From an uncultured Desulfobulbaceae bacterium (GTDB taxonomy: Bacteria; Desulfobacterota; Desulfobulbia; Desulfobulbales; BM004), in NCBI GenBank assembly GCA_945787325.1, contig CALZHP010000005.1, positions 476 to 64,475 of the forward strand: DNA of 64,000 nucleotides, written 5' to 3'. Below are positions 32,913-50,917 of the stretch, in pieces (the stretch's first letter is position 1; each line of letters opens with the position of its first letter). The notes beneath the pieces are model-generated. The model did not search any database. It was not told the DNA's origin and saw nothing but the letters and a program-made list of their open reading frames with translations. A program made the position numbers and the translations under genes.

Positions 32913-33403
32913 TTAATATGCCGACGTTTTTCCCTTTCTGTAAAATAAAATCCAGATCAAATCCATTAAACAGGCAGGGTAAAGAAGCACGCTTATCAGG
33001 TTTTTCATTATTTGAACTGCTCATTGTACTTCTCATACTGGGAATAATATCAACAGTTGCGATTCCCGGCATTTCTCGCATGTTAAACAAACTGGAATTC
33101 AGAAGACAGACACAGTTGGTTATGGCCACTTTACGATACGCCAGGTTGATATCCGTATCAAAAGGCAAGGAAGTTCATGTTGTCTTAGATCCGGACAACA
33201 ACAAATCAATGCTTTTAAGCGGTGCCGTTGATGAAATAAGAGAATTTGATTTTGGTGAAGATGGCAATATAACAATTGAACCTCCAAGAATTATTTTTCT
33301 TGCAGAAAGCCATGTAACACCAGCAACCATCCTTATAAATCAAGGGAAAAGAACCGTGAAGATTTTTATGGATCCACTGACGGCAATGCCGATAATGGAA
33401 TGA
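32909..33403 (+). CDS. gspH: Minor pseudopilin, GspH/FimT-like
   Basis: Prepilin-type motif SG|FSLFELLIVLLILGIISTVAIPG followed by RYARLISVSKGKEV, typical of GspH. ATGA overlap with gspF. Confidence 0.65.
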   Translation: MINMPTFFPFCKIKSRSNPLNRQGKEARLSGFSLFELLIVLLILGIISTVAIPGISRMLNKLEFRRQTQLVMATLRYARLISVSKGKEVHVVLDPDNNKSMLLSGAVDEIREFDFGEDGNITIEPPRIIFLAESHVTPATILINQGKRTVKIFMDPLTAMPIME

Positions 33404-33417
33404 ACCTTGCTGAATAA

Positions 33418-33969
33418 ATGAAGAACTTATTTACCCAAAAAGGTTTTACTTTAATAGAGCTTTTGGTTGCCGTCCTGCTTTTAGCAATGATTACCACCAT
33501 GGTTTATTCGATATTGAATGTTGGAATCAGAGCCCAGGATAAAGGAGGAAAAAAGCTGCTTGCCATGGAAAGGCAATTAGGACTTCTAAACCTCCTCCAT
33601 CACCAGGTGAATAGTGCTTGGTACGATGTCATGAAAGATGAAATCACAATTTCTTCGGATGGTAATTACCTTAGAATCATAACCCGATATCCGTTAATTA
33701 ACAGATCCTCGGGTATTGTATTGGCTATGTATCGTTATGATGAGGGCGAACAGACACTCTATTACCTGGAAAAAAAGGACTACTATAATATCGATTATGA
33801 TGATGAATACTTACCGGCAATTGATGAGATGTACTTTCTTACTAAAACAGATGGATCATTTTTCATGGAATACGATTCTGAAGAAGGAAATTTATTGGTT
33901 GAATATTTGGAAAATCAGTATGTCTTGTTACCGCGTTGTGGCTTTAACCCTTATGTTATTAATAAATAA
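33418..33969 (+). CDS. Minor pseudopilin, GspJ-like
   Basis: N-terminal KG|FTLIELLVAVLLLAMITTMVYS prepilin motif. 183 aa. Confidence 0.6.
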   Translation: MKNLFTQKGFTLIELLVAVLLLAMITTMVYSILNVGIRAQDKGGKKLLAMERQLGLLNLLHHQVNSAWYDVMKDEITISSDGNYLRIITRYPLINRSSGIVLAMYRYDEGEQTLYYLEKKDYYNIDYDDEYLPAIDEMYFLTKTDGSFFMEYDSEEGNLLVEYLENQYVLLPRCGFNPYVINK

Positions 33970-33979
33970 ATTCAACTTT

Positions 33980-34336
33980 ATGGATTATGGTGGAATGTTC
34001 AATAAGATTAAATCTTTTCATTTAAATGTCAGGGATGAAAAACAGGGCTTTACACTGCTTGAAGTTCTGGTTGCGGTTACCATACTTGGCCTAGCATATG
34101 TAGCTATATTACAGAATTTTTCTGTTTCAACCAGGAACATAATCCGACTCGAAAAAAATATGACTAGTGTCCTGGAAAGATCAATAGCATTTGATCAGGC
34201 ACTTATGGACCCAGAGAGTGAAGAATATGATATAGCAGAATCTGAAACACCTTTTTTAGAAGGTTTGCTGTTTAACCTGGTGGTGATATCAGACAAACAG
34301 GGCGATTACTCTACCTTAAAACTTTCAAGAAGGTAG
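33980..34336 (+). CDS. Minor pseudopilin, GspI-like
   Basis: QG|FTLLEVLVAVTILGLAYVAILQNF prepilin motif. The track ORF 33716-34336 extends upstream into the previous gene; I trimmed it to the ATG at 33980 (alternative 33995). Confidence 0.55.
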   Translation: MDYGGMFNKIKSFHLNVRDEKQGFTLLEVLVAVTILGLAYVAILQNFSVSTRNIIRLEKNMTSVLERSIAFDQALMDPESEEYDIAESETPFLEGLLFNLVVISDKQGDYSTLKLSRR

Positions 34337-34349
34337 CTCTGTATTAATT

Positions 34350-35360
34350 ATGACAAATGAATTGAGCATAGTTTTTAATATGTGTTTTTTGTACGCAAAA
34401 AATGATCACAGGCAAAATGAAAAGGGCTTTGCGCTTATTATAGTAATTGTAGCTATGCTCCTTGCCAGCTTTCTTGCTTCACAACTGATTTTACAGGTAC
34501 GTACAAATTTGAAAATAGCCGATAATGTAAAAAAAAGAACTGCAACACGATACACATCAGAGGCTGGTATAAACCTTGGTCTTTTCAGACTTATGGACAG
34601 ACCATTGGATTTTTATAATGAAGAATATAAAATTTTTAATCTGGGCTATATTTATGAAACTGAAATATCCGGCAGAACAGTCAGTTATTATGCGGTTAAC
34701 GAAACCGGAAAAATTGATTTAAATAATGCGCCACGTAAACTGTTAGAACTTTATTTTGAATATCAAGGGCTCGATCCCGACCAAACGGCAACTTTAATTG
34801 ACTCCATACTGGATTGGAGAGATACTGATGATTTGAATAGATTAAACGGAGCTGAACAGGAATATTACCAGGGTTTAGAAGATCCTTATATTCCAAGAAA
34901 CGGCAATATTCGTGATCCTGGTGAGTTTTTTATGATAAAAGGGTCTGAACCACTATCTGGAAAAATTGTATCGGATGAAGTGTTTACGATACATAATAAG
35001 CAGAAGAAAATTAACTTTAACAGCCTGACTCCTTCTATGCTTGAATTTATAACGGGTGGAGATCAAGAAACAATAGATGCCTATAAAGAATCACAGGAGA
35101 CATATGGTAAGTTATCAGCTGTCCAGGCAAAGCTAATTCTGGGTGATGAAAGATTTAGCCTACTTAGCCCATATTTGATATATACGAACGGCCAAAACAG
35201 AAATTATTTTATTGTCGGTTTAAGCAAGTCGAGTTACTCTCTCAGTCCAACTGATGAAAAAATTGAAAAAAAACATGGACCTGGAACAAAAATAAGCGTT
35301 ATTATCGTTCTGGATAAGTATGGTTATAAATACTTATCCTGGAAGGAAAGTCTTATATGA
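34350..35360 (+). CDS. gspK: Minor pseudopilin GspK-like
   Basis: N-terminal hydrophobic KGFALIIVIVAMLLASFLAS. Motifs GKIDLNNAP, ILDWRDTDD and GAEQEYYQGL are typical of GspK. Confidence 0.7.
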   Translation: MTNELSIVFNMCFLYAKNDHRQNEKGFALIIVIVAMLLASFLASQLILQVRTNLKIADNVKKRTATRYTSEAGINLGLFRLMDRPLDFYNEEYKIFNLGYIYETEISGRTVSYYAVNETGKIDLNNAPRKLLELYFEYQGLDPDQTATLIDSILDWRDTDDLNRLNGAEQEYYQGLEDPYIPRNGNIRDPGEFFMIKGSEPLSGKIVSDEVFTIHNKQKKINFNSLTPSMLEFITGGDQETIDAYKESQETYGKLSAVQAKLILGDERFSLLSPYLIYTNGQNRNYFIVGLSKSSYSLSPTDEKIEKKHGPGTKISVIIVLDKYGYKYLSWKESLI

Positions 35361-36502
35361 AAGATGCTCTCGAAATAATCATTGAGAAAAACGGTGTTAA
35401 CATTTGTCACCCATTCTCTAATGATGCAGATATGTTTATTGATAATAAAAGTCTGCTGGGTGAAAGGTTGCTCGCCTATTGTTCAAGGAACAATATATCT
35501 TTTAGCAAGGTTTCATTATTTGTATCAGAAGAGCTGCTTTTTTTTAAATCTATAAATCTTCCTCTTAAAACACGTGATATAAAACAAGCTGTCGAATATC
35601 AACTTGATATGCTGATACCGTTTCCAAAAGAAACGATGCTCTTCAGTTATACTAACGAGCGGTTAAAAGAAAACTACAGGTTGAACCTTGTTGCTGTTAA
35701 TAAACAACTTGTGGAGCCTGTCGCACAGGAAGTGTCTAATGCCGGTTATATCATTACCGGCCTATTTCCAGAAAGCCAAAGATATATCAACCGCCTGGCA
35801 CAGAAGTCTAAATGGGCACTTGTTTTGCCTGGGAGATTTTCCAAGGTTTATACTTTTATAGGATCTCAACTTGAAGATCGTTTCCTGTGTGGCAAGGAGC
35901 CATCTTTTTCAGAACTGACTTCTCTTTGTAAATGTGACACAATTTATCATCAGCAACCCGTACAAGGCAGCAGGTACCAAAATGCCAGAGAACTCCTTGA
36001 GCAGAATCCAATACTTAAAGATTTCAACATGCTGCCGGAATCTTTCCGTCAACCAGACTATTTTAAAGTTGCAATTGTTGCTTTGATAGGTCTTAACCTC
36101 GCAGCATTATTAGTTCTGGGCGGGATAAAAGGATTTTCTTTAATACGAGCAGATAATAAAGTTGAAAACGCAATTAGCGAAATTATGCCACAAGTTAATG
36201 AGGTTAACAAATTGCGTTCCAAAGAAGATATGCTTTTAAAGAACCTGAACACTGTAGAAAGTATAAGTAAGAATCCAGACCTTATTGGTTTTTTAAAGAA
36301 CCTTTCCGAAAAGTTGCCTGAATCATCATATCTGGATCAGATGCGAATGGACAAGAAAAGCAGATCGTTTCATATTCAGGGTTATACAGAGAATGTTGGT
36401 GAATTGACTACTCAACTTCAATCCATAGGTGAGTCAAAGCTTAAATCAACAAGTCGCAGGAGAAACAGAACATACTTTCAGGTGGAGATCAGCCTGCCAT
36501 GA
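35357..36502 (+). CDS. GspL-like / PilM-PilN-type bitopic assembly protein
   Basis: The ~230-aa cytoplasmic part is followed by a single TM segment (FKVAIVALIGLNLAALLVLGGI) and a ~130-aa periplasmic part. Position between gspK and a GspM-like gene, with start overlapping gspK. The call rests on architecture, not on motifs. Confidence 0.5.
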   Translation: MKDALEIIIEKNGVNICHPFSNDADMFIDNKSLLGERLLAYCSRNNISFSKVSLFVSEELLFFKSINLPLKTRDIKQAVEYQLDMLIPFPKETMLFSYTNERLKENYRLNLVAVNKQLVEPVAQEVSNAGYIITGLFPESQRYINRLAQKSKWALVLPGRFSKVYTFIGSQLEDRFLCGKEPSFSELTSLCKCDTIYHQQPVQGSRYQNARELLEQNPILKDFNMLPESFRQPDYFKVAIVALIGLNLAALLVLGGIKGFSLIRADNKVENAISEIMPQVNEVNKLRSKEDMLLKNLNTVESISKNPDLIGFLKNLSEKLPESSYLDQMRMDKKSRSFHIQGYTENVGELTTQLQSIGESKLKSTSRRRNRTYFQVEISLP

Positions 36503-37056
36503 CATACATTCTACAAAGGATAAAGAGTTATAGCACAAGAACGCTTCTTATTGCTTTTGCCGTGTTATTGCTCGTTCTAAACATTGGTCGTTTTGCAATA
36601 AATTATTATTCAGATAAAAAAATCGAAGTCACTAGTAAGTTTGATCTTCTTGAAAAATACAGATCCGCAGCCAATACTCTTCCGGCTCTTAAAAAAAGAG
36701 TTGAGGTCTTAGAGAAACAGCAAAAAGAGAATGACACCTATTTTTTTGCAGGCAAATCCGGTGAAGAAGCGTCATCATCCATGCAGTTAAAACTTCAGGA
36801 AAATATAAGTTCATCAGGCCTGGTTCTTGAAACTCTACGACCCTCATTTAAAAAGGAAAGTTCCGAAGAAAAAAATATAGGAGAAGTGCAAATTAAAATA
36901 AGGCTTTCCGGCTCAATTGATGGTTTTGGCCGTTTTATATCGAGCATATATGAGTCCGATAAGCTTTTTCAAATTGAAAGTTTTACACTAAAGCCTTTCA
37001 AAGGATCAGGCCTAAAAATTTTCCTGGATTTGAAGGGTTATTATAAGATCTCATAA
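36499..37056 (+). CDS. GspM/PilO-like bitopic assembly protein
   Basis: 185 aa with an N-terminal TM segment (LLIAFAVLLLVLNIG), a coiled-coil-like segment and a ferredoxin-like-sized C-domain. Start overlaps the previous gene. Confidence 0.45.
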   Translation: MTYILQRIKSYSTRTLLIAFAVLLLVLNIGRFAINYYSDKKIEVTSKFDLLEKYRSAANTLPALKKRVEVLEKQQKENDTYFFAGKSGEEASSSMQLKLQENISSSGLVLETLRPSFKKESSEEKNIGEVQIKIRLSGSIDGFGRFISSIYESDKLFQIESFTLKPFKGSGLKIFLDLKGYYKIS

Positions 37057-37092
37057 TAACGGTTTGTTGAATTATTAATATTATTTGAAATT

Positions 37093-37869
37093 ATGTTACG
37101 AATTACATTAATCGCAGTTCTGGTATTATCTTTTTTCTATTTGGTGAAAGCCGGTACGATCAGTTGGCAATATGAATCAGATGAAAAAGAAATTATTTCA
37201 AAGAAAGCAGAATCTAACCAAAAGCTGTTAACTAAAAAGATAAGCTTCTATCCTGCTGTTTCAGACCCTTTACCAGATCTTAATGAAGGGTATCTCTTCA
37301 GTGAATCACGGCAAGCGGAGGTAGTCGATTCTGTAGGTATAACTGATTCTGAAGCTGCAGATAGTAATATTGATTTGGATGTAATTATGTATACCGGTTC
37401 AATAATAACACCAACTGCTCGTAAAGGTATAGTAACTTACCAGGTAAAGGAAAAAGTTGTTCGTCGAGGTTCAAGCCGTATCAGAGGAAAGGTAGCAATT
37501 ACTAAATCCGAAAACAAGCTACTTGTTCTGGGAGATTCTATTGACGGGTACGAGGTCAACGAGATTTTACCCGAAAAAATAGTATTTGTTAAAGGTGAAG
37601 ATACTGTTGAAAAACCTTTATACGATCCTGATAAGGTGAGAAAAACTCCGCCTCAACCAGCACGTAAAAAGAAAAAAGCAGCTACTGTTAAGAAACCCAC
37701 TGCTCCAGTTGTCAGAACTTCGCCAGGCACTAAAGCAACTGCAAAATCACCTGTTGACACAAAAAAAACTAGGCAACCTGGTATAATATCTCCAAGAATA
37801 CGCAGGCCACCCGCTGCTAGTCGCTTAGTCCCTTCGACTGGTCGACTACCCAGGCCTTCTGATCCATGA
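37093..37869 (+). CDS. T2SS-associated bitopic protein of unknown function with basic Pro-rich tail (possible GspC/PilP/GspN substitute)
   Basis: N-terminal TM segment (ITLIAVLVLSFFYLV). C-terminus reads KKKKAATVKKPTAPVVRTSPGTKATAKSPVDTKKTRQPGIISPRIRRPPAASR. It lies between the gspM-like gene and gspD. Confidence 0.35.
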   Translation: MLRITLIAVLVLSFFYLVKAGTISWQYESDEKEIISKKAESNQKLLTKKISFYPAVSDPLPDLNEGYLFSESRQAEVVDSVGITDSEAADSNIDLDVIMYTGSIITPTARKGIVTYQVKEKVVRRGSSRIRGKVAITKSENKLLVLGDSIDGYEVNEILPEKIVFVKGEDTVEKPLYDPDKVRKTPPQPARKKKKAATVKKPTAPVVRTSPGTKATAKSPVDTKKTRQPGIISPRIRRPPAASRLVPSTGRLPRPSDP

Positions 37870-37967
37870 TAAATATTGAAAATAATAGTCTTATATATAG
37901 AAATTTGTTAATTATTTTTTTATAAATCAATGATGATTCCAATATACATTTCTTTTGAAGGTGAATT

Positions 37968-40148
37968 ATGCGATTTAAAATAATCGTTTCAACACTTCTT
38001 TTCTTAAACATTTTTATCATTTCAGGATGCACTCCACCTAAATATTCTGACCAGAGAATGGTTAGCAAGGTTGATATTTCTGAGATAAGCAAAAAAATAT
38101 CAAGAGAAGATGCAAAAAGTGCCCTGTTAGATGTATCTGAGACAGTTGAAAAAGAGCCTCCGGGTCCGAAAATTAAAGATTTATCTGTAGAAACCTTTGA
38201 TAGAAATCCTTACCTCGACAACGTTTCAGTCCCAAAAAAAAGAAAATTACCTAAAGCTGTTGAAGGTGAAGGAATACTTCTTAACTTTGACAATGCAGAT
38301 ATATACGAAGTAATTCAGGTCATTGCTGAAACATTAGGCCTGAATTATATAATCGATCCCCAGGTTAAAGGTATTGTTAATATACGTTCCGGACAAAAGA
38401 TTCCTATGAATCAGCTATCTGTACTTTTTCGGAAAATCCTTAATATAAATGGATTGGATATCAGGCAGGAGGGAGAATACGAGTATATATTTGTTTCGAA
38501 TAAGCTTGCTTCACAAAACTTTTTTGGGCCTGGCCAGATGGGCGATCTCAAAAAATCACCCAGAATGGTTATCCAGGTATTGCCGTTGATGTACATGTCA
38601 TCGACAGAAGCCATGCAGCTTATCGAACCTTATATATCCGAACAGGGATCTGTCCACAATCTAACCAGCTCAAACACGCTTATAATTACTGATTTCGAAT
38701 CAAAAGTTATAGATTCATTAATGCTCCTTAGTCGTATTGACATTTCCCCTCTTTCATCTCTTAAGGTTCGCCTGGTTAAAATTGAAAACGCACCACTCTT
38801 TGACTTGCGTGATGAGTTACTTGAAATCCTTTCAGCACTTCAAATAAACAAAAAAGACCGTGATGCCATATCAGTAATTCCTCTTGAAAGAGTAAATTCT
38901 ATTTTATTGGTCAGCAATAACAGAAAGCTCATTGAGAGTGCAGAAGAGTGGGTAAGTGAACTTGATGTTGTTCCAACTCAGGGTAGAGATAACATATATA
39001 TATATAATGTAAGAAACTCAGTTGCATCAGATCTTGCTGATCTGGTTAATACTTTAATTAGTGACCAGGGGGATGGCAAAACATCCCAAACAAGAAGACC
39101 GGCACCTATTAGACCGGCTTCAGCAACAGAAGATTCGACAACACGGGCTGCTGCTCCTTCAACAGCTTCCAGAGGTGTCAGTTCTGGAGAAACATCTTCT
39201 TCTTTGCATTTTGCTGGTGAACCAGTTCTTATAGCAGATGACAGCCGCAACATTATTCTCTTGAGGGCTCTACCTGTTGATTATTCAAGGCTGGCCAAAC
39301 TTCTTGAACGGCTTGACAACTTACCGCGTCAGGTACTTATTGAAGTTTTGGTAGCCGAAGTGACACTAAGTGACGGGTGGGAGTTTGGTATTGAGTGGGC
39401 GTTGAAAGACAATAATCTAAATATAAATCATCATGATTACACCCAGACTTACAGTACAGAATTCGACCAAGTGGCTGCAGGTGCACTTGGAGGTTTCAGC
39501 TACAGTGCTATAAGTAATAGCGGTAGACTGATTACAGTTCTAAATGCACTTGCTGATAAAGATGATGTTTCAATACTTTCTTCTCCACAGGTGCTGGTAT
39601 TAAACAATGAAACAGCAACAGTTAATGTAGGTCAAGAAGTTCCTATTGTTACCACAGAAACCATTAATGACGATGTTAACACCAACAATACCAGAACCGT
39701 TCAATATCGTGATACTGGTATTATTTTAAATGTTACGCCAAGAATTAACTATGACGGTATTATTATACTTGATATCGACCAGCAAGTAAGTGAAGCATTG
39801 ACAGAAAACGTGACATCGGGCATAGACTCACCCGTTATCACATCCCGAGAACTCAAAACAAAACTTGCCGTAAAAGATGGACAATCCATTTTGATGGGAG
39901 GATTAATTGAAAGAAAAACTGAAAGTGGTGAAGTTGGGGTTCCATTGTTGAAGGACATACCTGTTTTGGGATGGCTTTTTAAATATCAAACCGAGACAAA
40001 CGATAAAACTGAACTGGTAATAATGATTACTCCATATGTTATTGAATCTGAAGATGTACTAGATCAGTACATAAGCCAGTTTAAATTAAAGATGGATGAG
40101 CTGCGGGGAGAGTTAACTGGCGCTGAAAGTCAAATTATGACCCAATAA
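37968..40148 (+). CDS. gspD: Type II secretion outer-membrane secretin (lipoprotein-type signal)
   Basis: Lipobox IISGC. N0 domain LNFDNADIYEVIQVIAETLGLNYIIDPQVKG. Secretin domain SSPQVLVLNNETATVNVGQEVPIVT...GIPLLKDIPVLGWLFK. Confidence 0.9.
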   Translation: MRFKIIVSTLLFLNIFIISGCTPPKYSDQRMVSKVDISEISKKISREDAKSALLDVSETVEKEPPGPKIKDLSVETFDRNPYLDNVSVPKKRKLPKAVEGEGILLNFDNADIYEVIQVIAETLGLNYIIDPQVKGIVNIRSGQKIPMNQLSVLFRKILNINGLDIRQEGEYEYIFVSNKLASQNFFGPGQMGDLKKSPRMVIQVLPLMYMSSTEAMQLIEPYISEQGSVHNLTSSNTLIITDFESKVIDSLMLLSRIDISPLSSLKVRLVKIENAPLFDLRDELLEILSALQINKKDRDAISVIPLERVNSILLVSNNRKLIESAEEWVSELDVVPTQGRDNIYIYNVRNSVASDLADLVNTLISDQGDGKTSQTRRPAPIRPASATEDSTTRAAAPSTASRGVSSGETSSSLHFAGEPVLIADDSRNIILLRALPVDYSRLAKLLERLDNLPRQVLIEVLVAEVTLSDGWEFGIEWALKDNNLNINHHDYTQTYSTEFDQVAAGALGGFSYSAISNSGRLITVLNALADKDDVSILSSPQVLVLNNETATVNVGQEVPIVTTETINDDVNTNNTRTVQYRDTGIILNVTPRINYDGIIILDIDQQVSEALTENVTSGIDSPVITSRELKTKLAVKDGQSILMGGLIERKTESGEVGVPLLKDIPVLGWLFKYQTETNDKTELVIMITPYVIESEDVLDQYISQFKLKMDELRGELTGAESQIMTQ

Positions 40149-41147: not shown

Positions 41148-41498
41148 ATGAGAATTGGAAAAAGTAAATTTTTATTTGGCGTTTTTACATTTTTAATAGC
41201 AGTGAGTTTCATCTGCATTTCTGTAGACAATGCAGATGCTCGTAGAAGACGGAGAAGAAGACCGCCACCACCAGTATCTGAAACTGTTGGTACAGTTGAA
41301 CAGGTAATTCAGAATGAAGAAATTACCATTGTTCAAATAAACAATGGTTCTACTTTATCCTGGGTGGCTACTCCTTCAATACAGGTTTCTGTAGGCGATA
41401 GTATTTCATTAAGACCCGGCAATAGAATTAACGGCCAACACATGAGGAGACTGAACAGAACATTTGATTCCATCATCTACTCTGATGGGCCAAATTGA
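41148..41498 (+). CDS. Small secreted protein, cytochrome-cassette partner (paralog of 46857-47201)
   Basis: RBS gaggga. Signal peptide, then RRRRRRPPPP, then an ~70-aa segment (WVATPSIQVSVGDSISLRPG...RRLNRTFDSIIYS). That segment aligns with WVAVPATDISVGDRVLFKPG...KSLNRTYSRIVLS in the paralog. Confidence 0.7.
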   Translation: MRIGKSKFLFGVFTFLIAVSFICISVDNADARRRRRRRPPPPVSETVGTVEQVIQNEEITIVQINNGSTLSWVATPSIQVSVGDSISLRPGNRINGQHMRRLNRTFDSIIYSDGPN

Positions 41499-41554: not shown

Positions 41555-44500
41555 ATGGGAAGAGAGGTATTTAAACATAGGCTGCTCTTCTTAACCCTTT
41601 TATGTTTTATAGGGTTATGGGGAGCTATTAACGCTGGCAACGCACAAGCTGTACTTACTGATGCGGATTGTGCCGTCTGCCATGCTGTTGTGGCAGCAGA
41701 TCCAATAACTCCACACCATAACCTTGCTTTTCAGCAAGGTAAATCATGTTCAGAGTGCCATAGGCAGGCTAACCCTGGTTGTACAGACTGCCATGGAGAC
41801 CCAATTGTAGACCCGGCATTTCATGAAAACGCTCACAATAAAATTAGCATAGCAACAGATTGTGCCGCCTGTCATGGAAGCCCGGACATTATTGAAGTTA
41901 CACACATGGAAAACTGCTTTGGTTGTCACGAGAGCACTGATCCAAATATCATCTCTATCATTGACAACGCCATTGCAGATCCCAATGCTTCGGTAAATTG
42001 TGAAACATGTCATGGCATGCTTGGCAACCCTCAACACGCCGACCCGGACCATAGCAGGATTAACATTTTTTCTGAATGTGCAACCTGCCATGGCGATCCT
42101 GAAATTGTTGGTATAACACATCTTGACAACTGTGCTACCTGTCATAGCAGCCCTCGACCAGAAGTACAAACAATTATCGATAATGCGGTTGCTGATCCCA
42201 CCCTGCAAGTTAACTGTGCTGATTGTCACGGTGTACTCGCGGAAGCTCATGCCGCTCCAGATCATACGGAAATTCAAATTTCCGCTGATTGTCAGGAGTG
42301 TCACGGCAGCCCGGATATTGTACCGGTAACCCACTTGAACAACTGTGCTACATGTCATGCCGCACCACAGGCAATTCAGGATATTATAGATGCTGCCCTG
42401 AATAATACTGCGGTTGCTACCTGTAATGCTTGTCATGGTATATTTAATGTACAACATCCTGAGCCTATACATGACAGCCTTTCCATCTTCCCGGAATGTG
42501 CTACATGTCATGGAGACAGTGATATAATTGGCGTAACTCATATGGTGCCTTCTACATATCCATGCGGGTACTGTCATGTCAGCACAGACCAGAATGTTAT
42601 TGATACGATCAGCGCTGGCGCTGCAGGTACACCTGTTAACTGTTCAGGTTGTCATGGTACGCTCGTAGTTGTTCATGCCGCACCGAATCATACTGAAATA
42701 CAGATTTCCGCCGACTGTCAGGCATGTCACGGCAGTGTTGATATCGTGCCGGTAACCCATAATAACAACTGTGCTACCTGCCATGCCGCACCACAGGCAA
42801 TCCAGGATATTATAGATGCTGCCCTGAATAATACTGCAGTAGCTACTTGTAACGCTTGTCATGGTACCTTCCAGGAACAGCACAATAATCCGCAGCACAA
42901 CCAGATTTCAGTATTTTCTGAGTGTGCCACCTGTCATGGGGATGCTGATATTGTCGGTGTAACCCATAGAGGCTTATGTGAATCATGCCATACAAGCACA
43001 AGTCAGAATGTTATTGATACAATCGCTGCTGGTGTAGCTGGTACTCCTGTAGATTGTTCTAACTGCCATGGAGTACTAGCAGAAGCACATGCAGCTCCTG
43101 ATCATACGGAAATTCAGATTTCCGCTGATTGTCAGGATTGCCACGGCAGTACTGACATTGTGCCGGTAACCCATAATAACAACTGTGCTACCTGCCATGC
43201 TGCACCGCAGGCAATACAAGCCATTATAGATGCCGCTCTTAACAACACGGCTACTGCAACTTGTAATGCCTGTCACGGAGTGTTCCAGGAAGTACATGCT
43301 AATGTAACTCACAGCAATGTTGAAATTTCACAGCCATGTACTACATGCCATGGTGTGAACCAGACTCCGATCGGTGTTCATAATGATGATTGTCTGCTGT
43401 GCCACACCAGCACAAGGCCAGATGTCATCCAGACCATTGAGGACGGTAAAGCCGGTCTACTGGTTGGTTGTGTAGACTGTCATGGTAACGTAGACACAAC
43501 TGGCCTGAACCATCTGCCGCAGCATGATACGGAAACGCCAGAGCCATTATGTCTCGATTGCCATGATCCGAACGTTGCTCGTGAGCATTTGAATATATAC
43601 CCCGACATTGTCGAAAACTGTTTCATTTGTCATGGTGATCCAATACTTCAATCTGTAATTGAAGCCGGCAGAAGCTCGAATCCGAATGCAGTAATCATTA
43701 CATGTGCAGACTGCCATATGTTCACAACATTTGAAACCCACAATGTTGCTCATACACAAGTTGTACTTCCGTCCGACGGCTGTATTGACTGCCACGATGC
43801 TAACACTGCTACTGAACATGTTGACGTGAGAGGATGGGGTTGTACAACCTGTCACAGCAGTACACGCCAGGATGTGCAGGATGCAATTGCCAGCGGTAAA
43901 GCTGGAAATCTTGTCAACTGTACAGATTGTCACCAAGGGCCACTTGATCATGCTGCACAGCATGACCACACATTCCTGAACGCACCGGAATGTGCAGACT
44001 GTCATAGTGCTAACGTCGTCACTGAACATGTTGACAACCAGGGCTTTGGCTGCGGTATCTGTCATGACGATCCGCTCCTGGTTGAATTCATTATTAACCC
44101 GGGTATGGCCGGTACCGACATATTCTGTCAGGATTGTCATATACCGCCAACCGATCACACCAATGCTCATAATATGACGGATGTAACTGATCCTGCCTGT
44201 CTTGAGTGTCATGATTCGGATGTATCTGTAGAGCATGTGACAAACAATGGACTCAGCTGTACTGTCTGTCATGGTAACCCTGCATACGATCCTATCATTG
44301 ATAGCGGCAAGGGAGACACAGGTACACTTGTAACCTGTGATGCCTGTCATGGTGCAAACGCAGGAGATCATGTGGCGGCTCATGATATGACCCGTCTCAA
44401 CACAGGCAACTGTGCGGACTGTCACAACGCAAATGTTGTTACTGAACATGTAACTGATCACCTGTTAAGCTGTTCAACATGCCATTCAAGCACAGATCCT

Positions 44501-45952
44501 GCAGTTCAGGCCGCAATTTCTGCTGGTCAGGCCGGCCAGGAAGTATTCTGTTCAGATTGTCATGTCGGAGCCGGTATGCATACCGAACAGCACGATATGG
44601 TCATTCTGCCTGAAGCATACTGCGCAGACTGCCATGCTGGCAATGTGGTTATAGAACATGTTGACAACCGTGGTCTCAGCTGTGATACATGTCATGGCGA
44701 TCCTGTCCTACAGGATATAATTCAGGCAGGAATGAATGGCACTGCGCTTGATTGTTTGGATTGTCATATGACTACAGATCATATTACAGCCCATGACAAT
44801 ACAGATGTACCATCTCCTGAATGTGCCGACTGTCATAACGGCAATGTTGCCACCGAGCACTTCACCGATGGCGGCCTGAGTTGTCTGGTATGTCATGGTA
44901 ACACAGCTTACGATGCAATCATTGCTGCCGGCCAGGCTGGGACACTTGTAACGTGTACTGATTGTCATGGAGTATCTGATCATAGGGATGCGCACGACAT
45001 GACGGTTGTACCGCAGCCTGTTTGCGCTGACTGCCATGATCCGAACGTAGTCGTTGAGCATGTTGATAACCGTGGTTTGGATTGCGGTGTATGCCATAAC
45101 GCAACCTATCAGAGTATCATTGATTCCGGTATAGCCGGCAACCAGGTTAGCTGCCTGGCCTGTCATGGTGATCCGGACCATCATACCAACTCTAATGAAG
45201 CTTTAACCGGTAATTGTACCCATTGTCATGCTCCACCAAACAGCGCAATGGACGCACCTGTTCAGGGAGCTTGTCGTCAATGTCACATAAACAGCAACGG
45301 CTATGTACAGACATTTAATGGTACTACTGTACATGCATTTAATACCAACGGTGCTATTCAGGACTTTGGTGCCTGTTTTGCCTGCCACTCACCGCAGCCT
45401 TACCATGGTAAGCCCAACACTTGGCCTGGCTTTTTCAATGAAAATGCCGTTGCCCCGGGTAGAGGATCTTTTAATATCTTCTTCAGTCAGTTTAATCCGA
45501 GTTGTGCACCTGATTGTGAAGGTACATTCTATGAAGATCTAAACGGATACGGAGAGGACGGTCAACCCCAACGAGATGGTGGCGATACTTGGCGCAATCC
45601 AGCTATTAACTTTGACTGGGTAACAATTGAGCACATGGGTAATATGTATGATGTACCTGCATTCTCAAGCAGCCCAATGAATGGCGGAGGAGGTGATCCT
45701 CCTACCATGAATGACTCCGTGGTTATCACCTATGCTGATTACTCTTCTTGGAGTGATAGACTGACAGTTTACGCTGAGAACGCACTCGATGACGGAGCTA
45801 ATCTGAGCTTAACCTGGTGTGGTGACTCTTATTCAATGAGTTACAGTTCGAATAATGACCGCTGGGAGAAGCAAGTTGATAATGTAAACGACTGTGGTGA
45901 TGTCACTGTAACATCTGACATGGGTGGTAGTGACACTGCAACACCCAATTAA
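41555..45952 (+). CDS. Giant multihaem c-type cytochrome (about 54 CxxCH motifs, 1465 aa), secreted
   Basis: RBS gggagg. Signal peptide ending AQA. My hand count finds 54 CxxCH motifs between residues ~38 and ~1240. A haem-free ~225-aa C-terminal region follows. Confidence 0.9.
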   Translation: MGREVFKHRLLFLTLLCFIGLWGAINAGNAQAVLTDADCAVCHAVVAADPITPHHNLAFQQGKSCSECHRQANPGCTDCHGDPIVDPAFHENAHNKISIATDCAACHGSPDIIEVTHMENCFGCHESTDPNIISIIDNAIADPNASVNCETCHGMLGNPQHADPDHSRINIFSECATCHGDPEIVGITHLDNCATCHSSPRPEVQTIIDNAVADPTLQVNCADCHGVLAEAHAAPDHTEIQISADCQECHGSPDIVPVTHLNNCATCHAAPQAIQDIIDAALNNTAVATCNACHGIFNVQHPEPIHDSLSIFPECATCHGDSDIIGVTHMVPSTYPCGYCHVSTDQNVIDTISAGAAGTPVNCSGCHGTLVVVHAAPNHTEIQISADCQACHGSVDIVPVTHNNNCATCHAAPQAIQDIIDAALNNTAVATCNACHGTFQEQHNNPQHNQISVFSECATCHGDADIVGVTHRGLCESCHTSTSQNVIDTIAAGVAGTPVDCSNCHGVLAEAHAAPDHTEIQISADCQDCHGSTDIVPVTHNNNCATCHAAPQAIQAIIDAALNNTATATCNACHGVFQEVHANVTHSNVEISQPCTTCHGVNQTPIGVHNDDCLLCHTSTRPDVIQTIEDGKAGLLVGCVDCHGNVDTTGLNHLPQHDTETPEPLCLDCHDPNVAREHLNIYPDIVENCFICHGDPILQSVIEAGRSSNPNAVIITCADCHMFTTFETHNVAHTQVVLPSDGCIDCHDANTATEHVDVRGWGCTTCHSSTRQDVQDAIASGKAGNLVNCTDCHQGPLDHAAQHDHTFLNAPECADCHSANVVTEHVDNQGFGCGICHDDPLLVEFIINPGMAGTDIFCQDCHIPPTDHTNAHNMTDVTDPACLECHDSDVSVEHVTNNGLSCTVCHGNPAYDPIIDSGKGDTGTLVTCDACHGANAGDHVAAHDMTRLNTGNCADCHNANVVTEHVTDHLLSCSTCHSSTDPAVQAAISAGQAGQEVFCSDCHVGAGMHTEQHDMVILPEAYCADCHAGNVVIEHVDNRGLSCDTCHGDPVLQDIIQAGMNGTALDCLDCHMTTDHITAHDNTDVPSPECADCHNGNVATEHFTDGGLSCLVCHGNTAYDAIIAAGQAGTLVTCTDCHGVSDHRDAHDMTVVPQPVCADCHDPNVVVEHVDNRGLDCGVCHNATYQSIIDSGIAGNQVSCLACHGDPDHHTNSNEALTGNCTHCHAPPNSAMDAPVQGACRQCHINSNGYVQTFNGTTVHAFNTNGAIQDFGACFACHSPQPYHGKPNTWPGFFNENAVAPGRGSFNIFFSQFNPSCAPDCEGTFYEDLNGYGEDGQPQRDGGDTWRNPAINFDWVTIEHMGNMYDVPAFSSSPMNGGGGDPPTMNDSVVITYADYSSWSDRLTVYAENALDDGANLSLTWCGDSYSMSYSSNNDRWEKQVDNVNDCGDVTVTSDMGGSDTATPN
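42230..43290 (+). repeat. Three tandem near-identical ~414-426-nt coding repeats inside cytochrome 1 (six CxxCH per unit)
   Basis: Units start at about 42230, 42656 and 43070. Long stretches are nearly identical at DNA level. One example is ccggtaacccataataacaactgtgctacctgccatgc.gcacc.caggcaat.ca.g..attatagatgc, which encodes HAAPDHTEIQISADCQxCHGSxDIVPVTHxNNCATCHAAPQAIQxIIDAALNNTAxATCNACHG. Confidence 0.8.
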
Positions 45953-47201: not shown

Positions 47202-47269
47202 TCCGAGTCACTAATATAGGTTGAAGCATGAACGCAACTATTAAGGAAGGGAAAATCGGGAGGTATCAA

Positions 47270-50200
47270 ATGGGGATTATTACATTAAATACACGGTTAT
47301 TTCTGATAACCATGTTTGCCGCTGCCGCGCTTTGTTTTATCTATACAGGTAACGCCATGGCATTGACATCGGCAGATTGTGCAGAATGCCATGCACCAAT
47401 TGTCGCTGACCCAATAAGTCCACATCATAATCTTGCAACTCAACAGGCCCTTTCGTGTTCAGCATGTCACCGTATGGCAAGTCCAACCTGTACTGACTGC
47501 CATGGAGACCCAATAATTGACCCGGCATTTCATGAAAATATTCATTCGAACATCAGCATCGCTCCTGACTGTTCCTCATGCCATAGCAACCCTGATATTA
47601 TCCCCGTCACTCACTCTAATAACTGTACAGTTTGCCATGACAGTACTAACCAGGTTGTTATTGATACCATAGCAGCCGGTTCGCAAGGTACTGCCGTCAA
47701 CTGTGAAAACTGTCACGGTGCCCTTTCTGAAGTACATACCCCAACACACGCTCAAATCAGTATCGCAACCGATTGTGCCGGCTGTCACGGTGACCCCGCC
47801 ATAGTACCTGTTACTCATAGCGATAACTGTGCAACATGTCATAACAGTACTGACCAGGCAGTAATTGATACCATTACTGCAGGTTTCAATGGCACACAGG
47901 TCGACTGTAACAATTGTCATATAAGCATTAACCATACAGCGCAACACGATCAAACCTTTGTACCTGAAGCGATTTGCGCCGATTGTCATGACGGTAATGT
48001 TGCGGTAGAACATACAGTTAATCACTCTTCAACTTGTACTGCTTGTCATAATGACCCATTGCTTGCTTCAATAATTGATAGTGGTAAAGCGGGCAATGCT
48101 GTAGTTTGCACGGACTGTCATACAGCTACAACACTTGCTTCTCATAATTCTCTTCATGACAAAACAGTACTTCCATCAGATGGATGTATTGAATGTCATG
48201 ATGCCAATGTAGCAGTTGAACATGTTGATAACAGGTCAATAGGCTGTACAGACTGCCATAACAGTACTCGACAAGAAGTACTGGATGCAATCGCCAACGG
48301 TATCTCTGGAATGACAGTTAACTGTTCAGATTGTCACCTTGGACCTCTTGATCATCAGGCAGCTCATGATATGACAAGGACAGACGATGTTTCCTGTCAG
48401 GACTGTCATAACCAGAATGTTGTAACAGAGCATGTCGACAACCAGGGCATTAGTTGCAGCAGCTGTCATGATGACCCAATGATACAAACTATCATTGCTT
48501 CAGGTGTGGCTGGCAACATTGTAGTGTGTGCTGACTGCCACATTATGTCCGACCACACAAACGCCCATAATAATACAGATGTAACGGATTCTGCCTGTCT
48601 CGAATGTCACGATCCGGATGTATCTGTTGAACACGTTGCCAACGGCGGCCTCAGCTGCCTTGTTTGCCATGGCAACACGACTTACGATGCGATCATTGAC
48701 AGCGGTAAAGGTATAGCAGGTACACTCGTAACCTGTGATGCATGTCACACAAATGCCGGTGATCATACAGCGGCACATGATATGACAAGTCTTAACTCAG
48801 GCGACTGTGCCGAGTGTCATAATGCCAATGTAGTTACAGAGCATGTTGATGTACGACTGTTAAGCTGTTCAACATGCCACTCTAGCACAGATGCTACGGT
48901 TCGGGCTGTAATAGAATCCGGCCAGAACGGTCAGGAAGTATTTTGTTCAGATTGTCATGTGGGTGCCGGAATGCACTCAGATGAGCATGATATGGTAGAC
49001 GTACCAGATTCTTTATGTGCAGACTGCCATAATGGAAATGTTGTAATTGAGCACGTTGATAATCGAGCTCTTACCTGTAATACATGTCACGGTGATCCTG
49101 AACTTCAGAGAATCATTCAGTCCGGCATGAATGGAACTGCTCTTGATTGTTACGATTGTCATATGACAACTGATCATGCAGCTGAACACGACAATACAGA
49201 CGTTCCATCAGCGGAATGTGCAGAATGTCATGACGGCAATGTTACAGTAGAGCATATTGACAACCGCGGCTTAAGTTGTCTTGTCTGTCACGGCAGTGCT
49301 ACGTACGACTCAATCATTGCAGCGGGACAGACTGGTACACAAGTAACATGTACAGACTGTCACGGTGCAGCAGATCATAGTGCGGCCCATGACATGACTG
49401 TTGTACCGCAAGCGGTATGTGCTGATTGTCATGATCCGAATGTAGTAGTAGAACACGTTGATAACCGAGGTTTCGATTGCGGAATCTGTCATAACAGCTC
49501 ATATCAAGGCATAATTGATTCAGGTATTGCCGGCAATCAGGTTAGTTGTTTAAACTGCCATAATACTCCGGATCATCATGCAAACTCGAATGACGCAAAA
49601 TCAGGGAACTGTACACTGTGTCATCAAGTAACGAGTAGTGCAATGGATGCTCCTGTTATTGGCGCCTGTCGCGAATGTCATATAAATAATCAGGGATATG
49701 TCCTTCAGAAGAACCTGTCGAGTGTGTTAACTAGCCATAGAATTAACACCCAGGGCGATATCCAGGATTTTGGTGCCTGTATTACCTGCCACAACTACAG
49801 CAGCAATTCTGCTCCTTATGTCCAACCTTATCACGCTAAGCCGAGCAGCAAGCCGCGATACTATATCAACAACATTACCGAGGCTCCGGGCCGTGGTTCC
49901 TTCAACCTCTTCTACGACCAATGGCATAGAAATAGTGGCGAAGACAACGAAGGCAAGGAACCAGGATGTGGTGAAGATAGCAGCTGTAACGGTAGCAGCT
50001 GGCGCAATCCAGAAATCAGTTTCCAGTGGTTAACTATAGATTACAATGGAAATCTGTATGATGTACCGGCTTTCTCTGATAGTGGTAATAGACCGGACGG
50101 AGGAGGTCCTCCTGTTGATCCGCCTACCGGTGGTGGCTGTGAAATTGATGCGAATGGGACCTATGTTGAATCCGAAAATTATAATGCCCTTGGCAACAAC

Positions 50201-50917
50201 TGGTCCGTACAAAGTGGCGACGGAAACGGCAATGGTTATCTGTATGCTACAGCAAACAGCACTAGCTCTGTTTCCGGTAGCCCGGCTGAATACGACCTTA
50301 CCTTTACCGAGTCCGGCACCTACTACATCTGGTTCCGTGGTAAAGATAATGGAAGTTCAGATGACAACTCACTCTGGTATGGAGTTGATGGTTCCATGAA
50401 AGGCAACGCTACAACTCCTGCAACAAACAATAACTGGAGTTGGACAAGGACCCCTCATAATACTGGTCCAAATCCAACCCGCATAACCATAAACAGCGCC
50501 GGCACATATACCGTTACTATATGGGCCAGGGAGAATGGCTTCCGATTCGACGGCTTCTATGTAACCAAGAGCAGCAGCTCAATATCCGGTTCCATTCCCA
50601 GCGGTGCTGACATTGTTGATCCCACCAACTGCGGTGGCGGAGGTGAACCACCTGTAGATCCACCTCCTGCTAACGATGACTCCGTAAACATCACCTATGC
50701 AGATTATTCATCATGGAGAGATAGGTTAAGGGTCTATGCTGAGAATGACCTCGATGATGAAGCGAATCTGAGCTTGACCTGGTGTGGAGAATCCTATTCG
50801 ATGAGTTATATTTCGAGTAATGACCGCTGGGAGAAGGAAGTCAACAACGTCAACGACTGTGGTGATGTTACGGTAACTTCAGATAGGGGCGGCAGTGATA
50901 CTGCAACGGCCAACTAA
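47270..50917 (+). CDS. Giant multihaem c-type cytochrome (about 36 CxxCH motifs) with lectin/CBM-like beta-sandwich insertion, secreted
   Basis: I preferred the ATG at 47270 (gggagg RBS; MGIITLNTRLFLITMF... parallels the cytochrome 1 N-terminus). The track start is 47228. My hand count gives 36 CxxCH motifs. Long stretches are collinear with the C-terminal two thirds of cytochrome 1. Confidence 0.9.
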   Translation: MGIITLNTRLFLITMFAAAALCFIYTGNAMALTSADCAECHAPIVADPISPHHNLATQQALSCSACHRMASPTCTDCHGDPIIDPAFHENIHSNISIAPDCSSCHSNPDIIPVTHSNNCTVCHDSTNQVVIDTIAAGSQGTAVNCENCHGALSEVHTPTHAQISIATDCAGCHGDPAIVPVTHSDNCATCHNSTDQAVIDTITAGFNGTQVDCNNCHISINHTAQHDQTFVPEAICADCHDGNVAVEHTVNHSSTCTACHNDPLLASIIDSGKAGNAVVCTDCHTATTLASHNSLHDKTVLPSDGCIECHDANVAVEHVDNRSIGCTDCHNSTRQEVLDAIANGISGMTVNCSDCHLGPLDHQAAHDMTRTDDVSCQDCHNQNVVTEHVDNQGISCSSCHDDPMIQTIIASGVAGNIVVCADCHIMSDHTNAHNNTDVTDSACLECHDPDVSVEHVANGGLSCLVCHGNTTYDAIIDSGKGIAGTLVTCDACHTNAGDHTAAHDMTSLNSGDCAECHNANVVTEHVDVRLLSCSTCHSSTDATVRAVIESGQNGQEVFCSDCHVGAGMHSDEHDMVDVPDSLCADCHNGNVVIEHVDNRALTCNTCHGDPELQRIIQSGMNGTALDCYDCHMTTDHAAEHDNTDVPSAECAECHDGNVTVEHIDNRGLSCLVCHGSATYDSIIAAGQTGTQVTCTDCHGAADHSAAHDMTVVPQAVCADCHDPNVVVEHVDNRGFDCGICHNSSYQGIIDSGIAGNQVSCLNCHNTPDHHANSNDAKSGNCTLCHQVTSSAMDAPVIGACRECHINNQGYVLQKNLSSVLTSHRINTQGDIQDFGACITCHNYSSNSAPYVQPYHAKPSSKPRYYINNITEAPGRGSFNLFYDQWHRNSGEDNEGKEPGCGEDSSCNGSSWRNPEISFQWLTIDYNGNLYDVPAFSDSGNRPDGGGPPVDPPTGGGCEIDANGTYVESENYNALGNNWSVQSGDGNGNGYLYATANSTSSVSGSPAEYDLTFTESGTYYIWFRGKDNGSSDDNSLWYGVDGSMKGNATTPATNNNWSWTRTPHNTGPNPTRITINSAGTYTVTIWARENGFRFDGFYVTKSSSSISGSIPSGADIVDPTNCGGGGEPPVDPPPANDDSVNITYADYSSWRDRLRVYAENDLDDEANLSLTWCGESYSMSYISSNDRWEKEVNNVNDCGDVTVTSDRGGSDTATAN

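What the first reader, a model, noticed from the sequence alone, without database searches (positions are those of the whole stretch)
43781..45186. Iterated ~66-70-aa trihaem module (7 consecutive copies), shared by both giant cytochromes
Seen: seven back-to-back units follow one pattern: C-x-(D/E)-CH-x-x-N-V-x-x-EH-(V/F)-x-x-x-G-x-x-C-x-x-CH-...-II-x-x-G-x-x-G-x-x-V-x-C-x-DCH-...-(D/M)H-x-x-x-H-(D/N). Each unit has three CxxCH motifs plus three further conserved His residues (EH, DH/MH, xHD).

The same module series appears in cytochrome 2 at roughly 47950-49560.

Inference: three spare His per three haems fits bis-His ligation of every haem in a repeating, rod-like trihaem building block. 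I do not recognise this as a described multihaem repeat family, but I cannot search.
Basis: partly seen in the sequence, partly recalled or inferred. Interest (0 to 1): 0.6.

Follow-up and report, generated by a model that had tools for sequence, protein, structure and literature searches.

The report
Tandem trihaem repeat in giant cytochromes
Two neighbouring giant secreted cytochromes (54 and 36 haems) are built almost entirely from a repeated 67-70-residue three-haem unit that is real and widespread in uncultured bacteria, is not the known c7-type "nanowire" repeat, and has no solved structure.

Summary

**What is there**
- The seven units at 43781-45186 (P1 residues 743-1210) belong to an array of 16 units in cytochrome 1 (1465 aa, 54 CxxCH).
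- Cytochrome 2 (1229 aa, 36 CxxCH) carries 10 units.
- All 26 units keep three CxxCH motifs and two spare His (H13, H57). The third, H61, is missing only from the last unit of each array.
- Spare His roughly equal haems (59/54 and 39/36), and no Met is conserved. This fits bis-His ligation of every haem.

**What it is not**
- The unit fails the curated GSU1996 repeat model TIGR04257, scoring 14.4 bits or less against a 40-bit cut-off. True c7-like proteins in the same genome score 70-82 bits.
- It fails a profile comparison with c7.
- It reaches only near-threshold scores in the catch-all Pfam Cytochrome_C7 family.

**Nearest relatives**
- No PDB entry matches by sequence better than E about 1e-7, and Foldseek found nothing.
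- The closest motif spacing is that of STC, MtrA, NrfH and OmcA.
- The same unit builds about 95-340 clusters of giant cytochromes, including a 27-haem Geobacter sulfurreducens lipoprotein.

**Verdict**
This is a new variant of the known haem-wire kind, of moderate interest. A T2SS cluster lies directly upstream.

The parts
41555..45952 (+). Cytochrome 1 (P0001), 1465 aa, 54 CxxCH, Sec signal peptide (…GNAQA|VL)
   Evidence: Pfam PF14522, PF14537 and PF22113 hit it.
41555..41860 (+). P1 signal peptide plus N-terminal 3-haem cap (residues 1-102; CxxCH at 39, 65, 76; HH at 54-55; F-H-x3-H at 89-94)
   Evidence: The same cap motif (LT..DC..CH…HH…) is seen in the short homologues P0313, P0316 and P0318.
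41861..43549 (+). P1 'TH-type' trihaem units 1-8 (residues 103-665). They include recent two-unit (hexahaem) duplications.
   Evidence: In the identity matrix, units 246/388/526 are 71-80% identical and units 315/457 are 74% identical. TRF finds a 426-nt period.
43550..45214 (+). P1 'EH-type' trihaem units 9-16 (residues 666-1220).
   Evidence: An AF2 model of residues 736-1030 has mean pLDDT 82.4.
45215..45439 (+). P1 C-terminal 3-haem cap (residues 1221-1295; motifs HH…TGNCxxCH…ACRQCH…IQDFGACFACH…PYH(G/A)KP)
   Evidence: Alignment A4 is conserved in 16 homologous segments. The PF22113 MtrC/MtrF domain II/IV match spans residues 1133-1281. The AF2 model is of low confidence here.
45440..45949 (+). 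P1 haem-free C-terminal tail (residues 1296-1465), shared with P2
   Evidence: No Pfam family hits it.
47228..50917 (+). Cytochrome 2 (P0002), 1229 aa, 36 CxxCH, paralogue of P1
   Evidence: The eight EH units correspond one-to-one with those of P1 at 50-82% identity.
47570..47974 (+). P2 TH-type units 1-2 (residues 115-249)
47975..49609 (+). P2 EH-type units 3-10 (residues 250-794)
49610..49834 (+). P2 C-terminal 3-haem cap (residues 795-869)
30026..40148 (+). Type II secretion cluster directly upstream (GspE, GspF, pseudopilins, GspK, L/M-like proteins, secretin GspD). This is context for export.
   Evidence: Pfam hits T2SSE, T2SSF, N_methyl/GspH, T2SSK_1st, PilN/PilO/T2SSM_b and Secretin.

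Best explanation
Both genes encode Sec-exported c-type cytochromes. Most of each chain is a head-to-tail array of one 64-77-residue unit (16 copies in P1, 10 in P2). Each unit covalently binds three haems through CxxCH and supplies three distal histidines. Every haem should therefore be low-spin bis-His, and the haems should form one continuous electron-conducting chain of 54 or 36 haems per polypeptide.

The unit is a distinct repeat family. It is not the c7-type domain that builds Geobacter GSU1996. Its motif spacing (A-20-B-26-C-24-A') and its sub-motifs (HD-x6-10-CAxCH and CxxCH-x7-H-x3-7-CxxCH) are those of the STC, MtrA, NrfH and OmcA group of linear haem chains.

H57 most likely closes a haem of its own triad and H61 the first haem of the next triad. 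If so, each linker stitches two triads together.

Inferred, not shown: the holo-proteins are passed across the outer membrane by the adjacent type II secretion system. There they would act as cell-surface or extracellular wires tens of nanometres long, carrying electrons to minerals or partner cells in an anaerobic, Wood-Ljungdahl-bearing member of the Thermodesulfobacteriota.
For: - **Repeat and invariant residues:**
- **Specificity:** the unit profile finds 26 matches in the genome, all in these two genes.
- **Signal peptides** are visible. Cytochrome c assembly genes are present in the genome.
- **Not c7:**
  - TIGR04257 scores 14.4 bits or less against a 40-bit cut-off, while true c7-like ORFs of the same genome score 70-82 bits.
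  - hhalign against c7 gives probability 32%, with the ligand His out of register.
  - The PpcA score (17.5) lies below the mean of 60 spacer-shuffled controls (23.7).
- **STC/MtrA-like:**
  - hhalign against STC gives probability 94.6% with four haem motifs in register. The real score is 46.3 against shuffled 35.0 +/- 5.3, and 2 of 60 shuffles reach it.
  - The best PDB profile hits are MtrA, OmcA, NrfH, MtrF and HmcA, at E 1e-7 to 1e-4. c7 and GSU1996 score E 0.1-0.2.
  - TIGR03508 gives a partial score.
- **Phase of the ligand set:**
  - The mature N-termini of the short complete homologues P0293 and P0278 begin 1-2 residues before an H61-like His.
  - P0316 and P0010 end with a single His 4 residues after the last CxxCH.
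  - P0316 has 9 haems and 9 spare His.
  - The pLDDT minima of the AF2 model fall on the H57-H61 segments.
- **Export context:** a complete T2SS cluster lies upstream.
- **Family breadth:** 1472, 342 and 95 representatives at E <= 1e-3, 1e-10 and 1e-30. The G. sulfurreducens homologue is AAR36279.1.
Against: - No haem-containing model or coordinates were available. Ligand pairings and rod shape are therefore inferences.
- Most of the hhalign signal to STC comes from CxxCH spacing alone (shuffled mean probability 75%).
- Foldseek found no PDB neighbour at all, not even STC or MtrA. No positive control could be run.
- T2SS adjacency is not conserved around the homologues P0008 and P0011. Secretion by this system is therefore unproven.
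- The chain-end analysis rests on a few homologues, and the wider survey is noisy.
Confidence: 0.7

Rival explanations
1. The unit is a c7-type trihaem domain, and the proteins are simply longer members of the GSU1996 family of c7 polymers (periplasmic electron capacitors).
For: - Pfam Cytochrome_C7 (PF14522) scores 230.7 bits over 21 stretches in P1 and 148.2 bits in P2.
- There are three haems per roughly 70 residues, joined by short linkers, as in GSU1996 (PMC10138318).
Against: - TIGR04257 nanowire_3heme scores 14.4 bits or less per repeat against a 40-bit cut-off. The same model gives 70-82 bits to c7-like ORFs elsewhere in this genome.
- Per-repeat PF14522 scores are only 21-30 bits, and that model also matches in E. 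coli, Thermus and Bacteroides controls.
- hhalign gives probability 32%, and the real score is below the shuffled controls.
- PDB c7 and GSU1996 score E 0.1-0.2.
- Three different tools align c7 to the unit in three different phases.
- There is no conserved Met for a His-Met haem.
Confidence: 0.1
2. The proteins stay in the periplasm or on the inner face of the envelope, as electron stores or periplasm-spanning wires. The neighbouring T2SS is unrelated to them.
For: - The homologues P0008 and P0011 have no T2SS within 10 kb.
- GSU1996 is periplasmic.
- PMC11492766 notes a pool of periplasmic wire cytochromes.
Against: - The T2SS cluster ends about 1.4 kb upstream on the same strand.
- Both proteins carry haem-free C-terminal domains. 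P2 has an extra beta-sandwich-like insert, typical of surface or substrate-binding proteins.
- From established knowledge, Shewanella MtrC and OmcA are T2SS substrates.
- At about 0.8-1.3 nm per haem, 36-54 haems would far exceed the width of the periplasm (inference).
Confidence: 0.2
3. The CxxC pairs bind zinc (DnaJ-type zinc-finger repeats) rather than haem.
For: Pfam DnaJ_CXXCXGXG scores 101.9 bits summed over 9 stretches in P1.
Against: - Every one of the 90 CxxC pairs is followed by His, giving CxxCH.
- The DnaJ match comes from CxxCHG in the TH-type units. In P2 it falls below the cut-off (21.2 bits against 32.7).
- The homologues are annotated cytochromes.
- Cytochrome c maturation genes are present.
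Confidence: 0.01

Closest known systems
GSU1996 of Geobacter sulfurreducens (dodecahaem 'nanowire'; four c7-type trihaem domains; NCBIfam TIGR04257; PDB 3OV0/3OUQ)
   Same: One polypeptide is made of tandem units of about 70-80 residues, each with three haems, joined by short linkers. Together they form a continuous haem wire.
   Different: - The unit fails TIGR04257 and the c7 profile tests.
- The order of ligands and motifs differs: H-CxxCH-H-CxxCH-CxxCH-H here, against H-x2-H-CxxCH-(H/M)-CxxCH-CxxCH in c7.
- Ligation here is all bis-His. GSU1996 has one His-Met haem per domain (PMC10138318).
- There are 16 and 10 units here instead of 4.
- N- and C-terminal caps and haem-free tails are present.
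Small tetrahaem cytochrome STC (PDB 1M1P/1M1Q) and the MtrA/DmsE decahaem family (PDB 6R2Q chain A; TIGR03508)
   Same: - CxxCH spacing of about 20-26 residues.
- An 'H-D-x5-9-C-A-x-C-H' motif before a haem.
- Linear chains of bis-His haems.
- hhalign probability 94.6% to STC with four motifs in register.
- MtrA is one of the two best PDB sequence hits, with OmcA.
   Different: - The scores are weak and mostly reflect spacing.
- TIGR03508 reaches 134.5 bits against a 192.2-bit cut-off.
- STC's two His between haems 2 and 3 have no counterpart here.
- Foldseek finds no structural match.
- STC and MtrA are not built from an iterated trihaem unit.
Giant single-chain 'wire' cytochromes of Desulfuromonadia described from AlphaFold models (Soares et al. 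2024, PMC11492766), and the 884-aa 27-haem PKD lipoprotein cytochrome of G. sulfurreducens (AAR36279.1)
   Same: - The Geobacter protein carries the same unit, with spacing 19-26-22, motifs EH…HxxxHD, and 27 spare His for 27 haems.
- The paper describes extracellular 27-haem wires that are not part of porin-cytochrome operons.
   Different: - Those proteins are uncharacterised experimentally.
- In the sections of PMC11492766 read here, the repeat unit, its ligand set and its boundaries are not defined.
- The present proteins are longer (54 and 36 haems), lack PKD domains, have a different tail, and lie next to a T2SS.

Membership tests
c7-type nanowire trihaem domain (GSU1996; NCBIfam TIGR04257) | Match to the curated model at or above its 40-bit cut-off | tested here: not met
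   The best repeat in the two genes scores 14.4 bits (E 0.1). c7-like ORFs on contig 28 of the same genome score 70-82 bits. TIGR04257 is also absent from the NCBIfam scan at E <= 1.
c7-type nanowire trihaem domain (GSU1996; NCBIfam TIGR04257) | Order of ligands and motifs H-x2-H … CxxCH … (H or M) … CxxCH … CxxCH, with spacings of about 24 and 14 | tested here: not met
   The order here is H … CxxCH-x7-H-x3-7-CxxCH-x21-CxxCH-x5-H, with spacings 18-20, 26 and 24. hhalign against c7 gives probability 32% with His out of register. The real score is below the shuffled controls.
c7-type nanowire trihaem domain (GSU1996; NCBIfam TIGR04257) | One His-Met haem per domain (PMC10138318) | tested here: not met
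   No conserved Met column in 26 units. There are three conserved spare His per unit.
c7-type nanowire trihaem domain (GSU1996; NCBIfam TIGR04257) | Tandem trihaem units of about 70-80 aa in one chain | tested here: met
   16 and 10 units of 64-77 aa.
Pfam Cytochrome_C7 (PF14522) | Whole-protein score above the 24.8-bit gathering cut-off | tested here: met
   230.7 and 148.2 bits. This is summed over 18-21 stretches of 21-30 bits each. The model also matches in E. coli, Thermus and Bacteroides controls, so membership says little.
STC / MtrA-DmsE linear haem chains | Sequence-profile similarity with haem motifs in register | tested here: inconclusive
   hhalign against STC gives probability 94.6%, but spacer-shuffled STC still averages 75%, and 2 of 60 shuffles reach the real score. 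MtrA scores E 1e-7 to 2e-6. TIGR03508 reaches 134.5 bits against a 192.2-bit cut-off.
STC / MtrA-DmsE linear haem chains | Superposable haem packing (alternating stacked and T-shaped pairs) | not testable with these tools
   The models come without coordinates or haems. Foldseek against the PDB returned no match with E <= 10 and only one noise hit.
MtrC/MtrF domain II/IV (PF22113) | Score above the 30-bit cut-off | tested here: met
   42.9 bits for P1 residues 1133-1281 only, covering the last two units plus the cap. The match does not extend to the repeat array.
All-bis-His low-spin multihaem cytochrome | One spare conserved His per haem and no alternative ligand | tested here: met
   Sequence level only. 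H13 and H57 are invariant and H61 nearly so. Spare His versus haems are 59/54, 39/36 and 27/27.
All-bis-His low-spin multihaem cytochrome | Spectroscopic low-spin bis-His signature and His-Fe distances | not testable with these tools
   Needs EPR, NMR or a haem-containing structure.

The most novel reading that the evidence does not exclude
The unit is a previously uncurated fold family of haem wires in which triads are not independent domains. Each linker donates one His backwards (H57) and one forwards (H61), zipping successive trihaem groups into a single continuous chain. Tandem duplication of one or two units can lengthen that chain. The family would yield T2SS-secreted single-polypeptide wires of several tens of nanometres, a third architecture beside c7 polymers and polymerising OmcS/E/Z filaments.
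Probability: 0.3. Interest if true: 0.6.

Novelty: new variant of a known kind. Interest (0 to 1): 0.45.

Why it matters
Single-chain haem wires are candidates for long-range extracellular electron transfer and for bioelectronic materials. The only characterised modular example is the 12-haem GSU1996.

A second, different trihaem repeat that scales to at least 54 haems would be useful in three ways:
- It is all bis-His and occurs in roughly a hundred to several hundred protein clusters (at 50% identity) in public genomes and metagenomes.
- It gives a defined, expressible unit for structural and redox work.
- It gives a better profile than the catch-all Pfam families for annotating giant cytochromes in metagenomes.

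It does not overturn current ideas. Giant modular cytochromes are already expected in this phylum.

Tried and rejected
1. **Whole-protein phmmer against PDB sequences:** no hit.
2. **Foldseek of two AF2 models against the PDB:** no match with E <= 10, then one noise hit.
   - The second model is poor in the C-terminal cap, with pLDDT below 50.
3. **c7 homology** was tested in three ways and rejected.
   - Pfam, hmmsearch and hhalign each placed c7 on the unit in a different phase.
   - I take this as evidence of generic CxxCH matching.
4. **Search for a free-standing single-unit protein of 39-124 aa** with the unit profile: none at E <= 1e-3 among word-sharing candidates.
5. **The search for related loci in genome contigs:** P0001 returned only one distant Chloroflexota locus.
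6. **The look-up of encoding contigs for P0001:** not on record.
7. **The look-up of sequencing runs:** Read support for the assembly of the repeat arrays could not be checked.
   - This matters mainly for the near-identical TH-type units at 42233-43233.
8. **The DnaJ zinc-finger hit** was judged a false positive.
9. **The locus tag of the Geobacter homologue** could not be fixed from the papers searched. Only the accession AAR36279.1 is cited.
10. **A systematic survey of chain-end units across 246 cytochromes** was noisy. Only the true termini were used.

Full report
**1. What is in the sequence**

ORF 41555-45952 (+) encodes a 1465-aa protein (P0001) with 54 CxxCH motifs. ORF 47228-50917 (+) encodes a 1229-aa paralogue (P0002) with 36. 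No other CxnCH variants occur.

The distances between successive CxxCH motifs cycle with period three. They run 18-26-25 in the first half of P1 and 20-26-24 in the second half.

Cutting at the first haem of each cycle gives 16 units in P1 (residues 103-1220) and 10 in P2 (residues 115-794). Each unit is 64-77 aa long.

In a MAFFT alignment of all 26 units the invariant columns are C1, C4, H5, H13, C21, C24, H25, I36, C47, C50, H51 and H57. H61 is missing only from the last unit of each array.

There are two sub-types:
- 'TH' units read CxxCHG..DIV.VTH…NCxxCH. P1 has eight and P2 has two.
Each protein has eight.

**2. History of the arrays**

The eight EH units of P1 correspond one-to-one with those of P2 at 50-82% identity. 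Units within one array are only 40-57% identical. The eight-unit array therefore predates the gene duplication and is old.

Tandem Repeats Finder (TRF) sees no DNA repeat in the EH region.

The TH part of P1 contains recent two-unit (hexahaem) duplications:
- Units 246/388/526 are 71-80% identical.
- Units 315/457 are 74% identical.
- TRF finds a 426-nt period at 42233-43233.

The wire has therefore been lengthened recently by tandem duplication.

**3. Ligands**

Each unit has three spare His and no conserved Met. The whole-protein budgets fit one distal His per haem:

| Protein | Spare His | Haems |
|---|---|---|
| P1 | 59 | 54 |
| P2 | 39 | 36 |
| G. sulfurreducens homologue | 27 | 27 |

This supports bis-His ligation at sequence level. 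Distances to iron could not be measured.

Which His serves which haem is inferred from chain ends of short, complete homologues found and read:
- The mature chains of P0293 and P0278 start 1-2 residues before an H61-like His (GHQSILNPEC…, SEHQGTLNPEC…).
- P0316 and P0010 end with a single His four residues after the last CxxCH (…CSNCHSVIH…).
- P0316 has nine haems and exactly nine spare His.

H57 therefore appears to belong to the preceding triad and H61 to the following one. The self-contained ligand set would run from H61 of the previous unit to H57.

The four-unit AF2 model has mean pLDDT 82.4. Three of its four pLDDT minima fall on the H57-H61 segments, and the fourth falls in the loop before haem C of the third unit.

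A broader automated survey of chain-end units was noisy and is only weakly supportive.

**4. Is it a known repeat?**

*Pfam.* Pfam assigns Cytochrome_C7 (PF14522; 230.7 bits over 21 stretches) and Cytochrom_c3_2.
- Each repeat scores only 21-30 bits against a 24.8-bit cut-off.
- Genuine c7-like ORFs of the same genome score 51-64 bits.
- The model also matches in E. coli, Thermus and Bacteroides controls.

*The curated GSU1996 model.* TIGR04257 (nanowire_3heme, cut-off 40 bits) gives 70-82 bits to those c7-like ORFs. It gives no more than 14.4 bits to any repeat here.

*Profile comparison with c7.*
- hhalign of a two-unit profile against a c7 alignment gives probability 32%, with the ligand histidines out of register.
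- Against PpcA alone, the score (17.5) is below the mean of 60 controls (23.7). In those controls only the residues between fixed CxxCH motifs were shuffled.
- Pfam, hmmsearch and hhalign each place c7 on the unit in a different phase.

I conclude that the unit is not a c7-type domain.

**5. What it resembles**

*PDB sequence searches.* Profile searches in two phases give only weak hits:

| PDB hit | E-value |
|---|---|
| MtrA (6R2Q chain A) | 1e-7 to 2e-6 |
| OmcA | 2e-7 |
| NrfH | 1e-5 |
| MtrF, HmcA | about 5e-5 to 1e-4 |
| STC | 0.02 |
| c7 and GSU1996 | 0.1-0.2 |

*Shared sub-motifs.* The alignments show 'HD-x6-10-CAxCH' (MtrA, STC) and 'CxxCH-x7-H-x3-8-CxxCH' (OmcA, NrfH).

*STC.* hhalign against STC gives probability 94.6% with four haem motifs in register. 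I recalled the STC sequence from memory and verified it as 100% identical to 1M1P. Most of this score is spacing: shuffled STC averages 35.0 +/- 5.3 against 46.3 for the real sequence, and 2 of 60 shuffles reach it.

*Other models.*
- TIGR03508 (DmsE/MtrA) reaches 134.5 bits, below its 192.2-bit cut-off.
- PF22113 (MtrC/MtrF domain II/IV) matches only the last two units plus the cap.

*Foldseek.* The confident four-unit model found no PDB match with E <= 10. A second model, of two units plus the cap, was poor in the cap and gave only noise. No positive control was possible, so this is suggestive only.

**6. Distribution**

- The unit profile finds 1472, 342 and 95 proteins at E <= 1e-3, 1e-10 and 1e-30 among 1.84 billion representatives. 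Most are giant proteins with 10-50 matched stretches.
- The search for homologous proteins gave 453 relatives of P1.
- 23 of the 121 proteins examined (the 120 listed plus P0002) carry four or more strict EH units.
- One is the 884-aa, 27-haem PKD lipoprotein cytochrome of G. sulfurreducens (AAR36279.1).
- Among 40 relatives, 3 of 18 genomes of the same family and 5 of 22 from other families of the order have the unit. The distribution is patchy.
- No free-standing single unit was found.

*Literature.* GSU1996 is described as four c7-like trihaem domains with one His-Met haem each (PMC10138318). Soares et al. 2024 describe AlphaFold-predicted extracellular 27-haem wires and note that only GSU1996 has been characterised (PMC11492766). 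A phrase search for trihaem repeats or modules found only GSU1996-related work.

**7. Context and function**

- A complete T2SS cluster (30026-40148) ends about 1.4 kb upstream on the same strand.
- Both cytochromes have Sec signal peptides, and cytochrome c assembly genes are present.
- The window also carries a CODH/ACS Wood-Ljungdahl cluster.
- A PurB-like marker is 58-61% identical to its best named hits, from Desulfobulbales, Desulfobulbaceae and Thermodesulfobacteriota. No close named relative exists.

I infer an anaerobe that secretes single-chain haem wires for extracellular electron transfer. Secretion by this T2SS is not shown, and T2SS adjacency is absent near two homologues.

**8. 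Verdict**

The feature is real. The bis-His reading is plausible. The unit is a distinct variant of the known modular haem-wire theme, with no curated model and no solved structure. It belongs to an already recognised class of giant cytochromes and occurs in Geobacter. Interest is moderate.

The scan had noted the same genes in sibling notes. Follow-up reports that overlap this stretch were withheld.

Noticed in passing
window 9103-17502 (-): A Wood-Ljungdahl carbonyl branch cluster. It comprises CooS/AcsA (15502-17502), an MTHFR-CdhD fusion (12821-15433), AcsB (10547-12751) and CdhD/AcsD (9103-10458). A large Fer4/pyridine-nucleotide oxidoreductase follows at 5952-8816.
   Followed up: no
window 42233-43233: A 426-nt tandem DNA repeat (2.4 copies, 75% matches) inside cytochrome 1. 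It corresponds to recent two-unit (hexahaem) duplications.
   Followed up: partly
P0004, P0005 (homologues): Some homologues contain two or three concatenated super-modules. Each super-module is a unit array, the conserved 3-haem cap, and then about 120 haem-free residues. The cap is therefore not only a chain terminus.
   Followed up: no
window 41148-41498 and 46845-47201 (+); L004 9360-9962: A small ORF with no Pfam match precedes each giant cytochrome. The homologue P0008 is likewise preceded by a 200-aa ORF with no Pfam match. This may be a conserved partner, but homology was not tested.
   Followed up: no
window 50130-50640 (P2 residues about 1007-1112): The haem-free insert found only in cytochrome 2 gives a weak, sub-threshold Pfam match to GH115_C (E 0.0078, 16.5 bits against a 24.1-bit cut-off). 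This is compatible with a beta-sandwich binding module.
   Followed up: no
window 51117-57644 (+): Downstream lie a ThiS-like/ThiF fusion and several secreted CarboxypepD_reg and right-handed beta-helix (NosD-like) proteins.
   Followed up: no
G000 contig 28 (L002 949-1386, 12261-12695, 12764-13345): These are genuine c7-like trihaem proteins (TIGR04257 70-82 bits). They lie in operons with NrfC-like 4Fe-4S and NrfD-like membrane subunits and with further multihaem cytochromes. They probably form quinone-interacting respiratory complexes.
   Followed up: partly
P0001, Pfam scan: DnaJ_CXXCXGXG scores 101.9 bits on cytochrome 1 because CxxCHG repeats mimic the zinc-finger motif. This is a likely source of mis-annotation, as in the JGI name 'PKD repeat protein/DnaJ-class molecular chaperone' for the Geobacter homologue.
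   Followed up: yes
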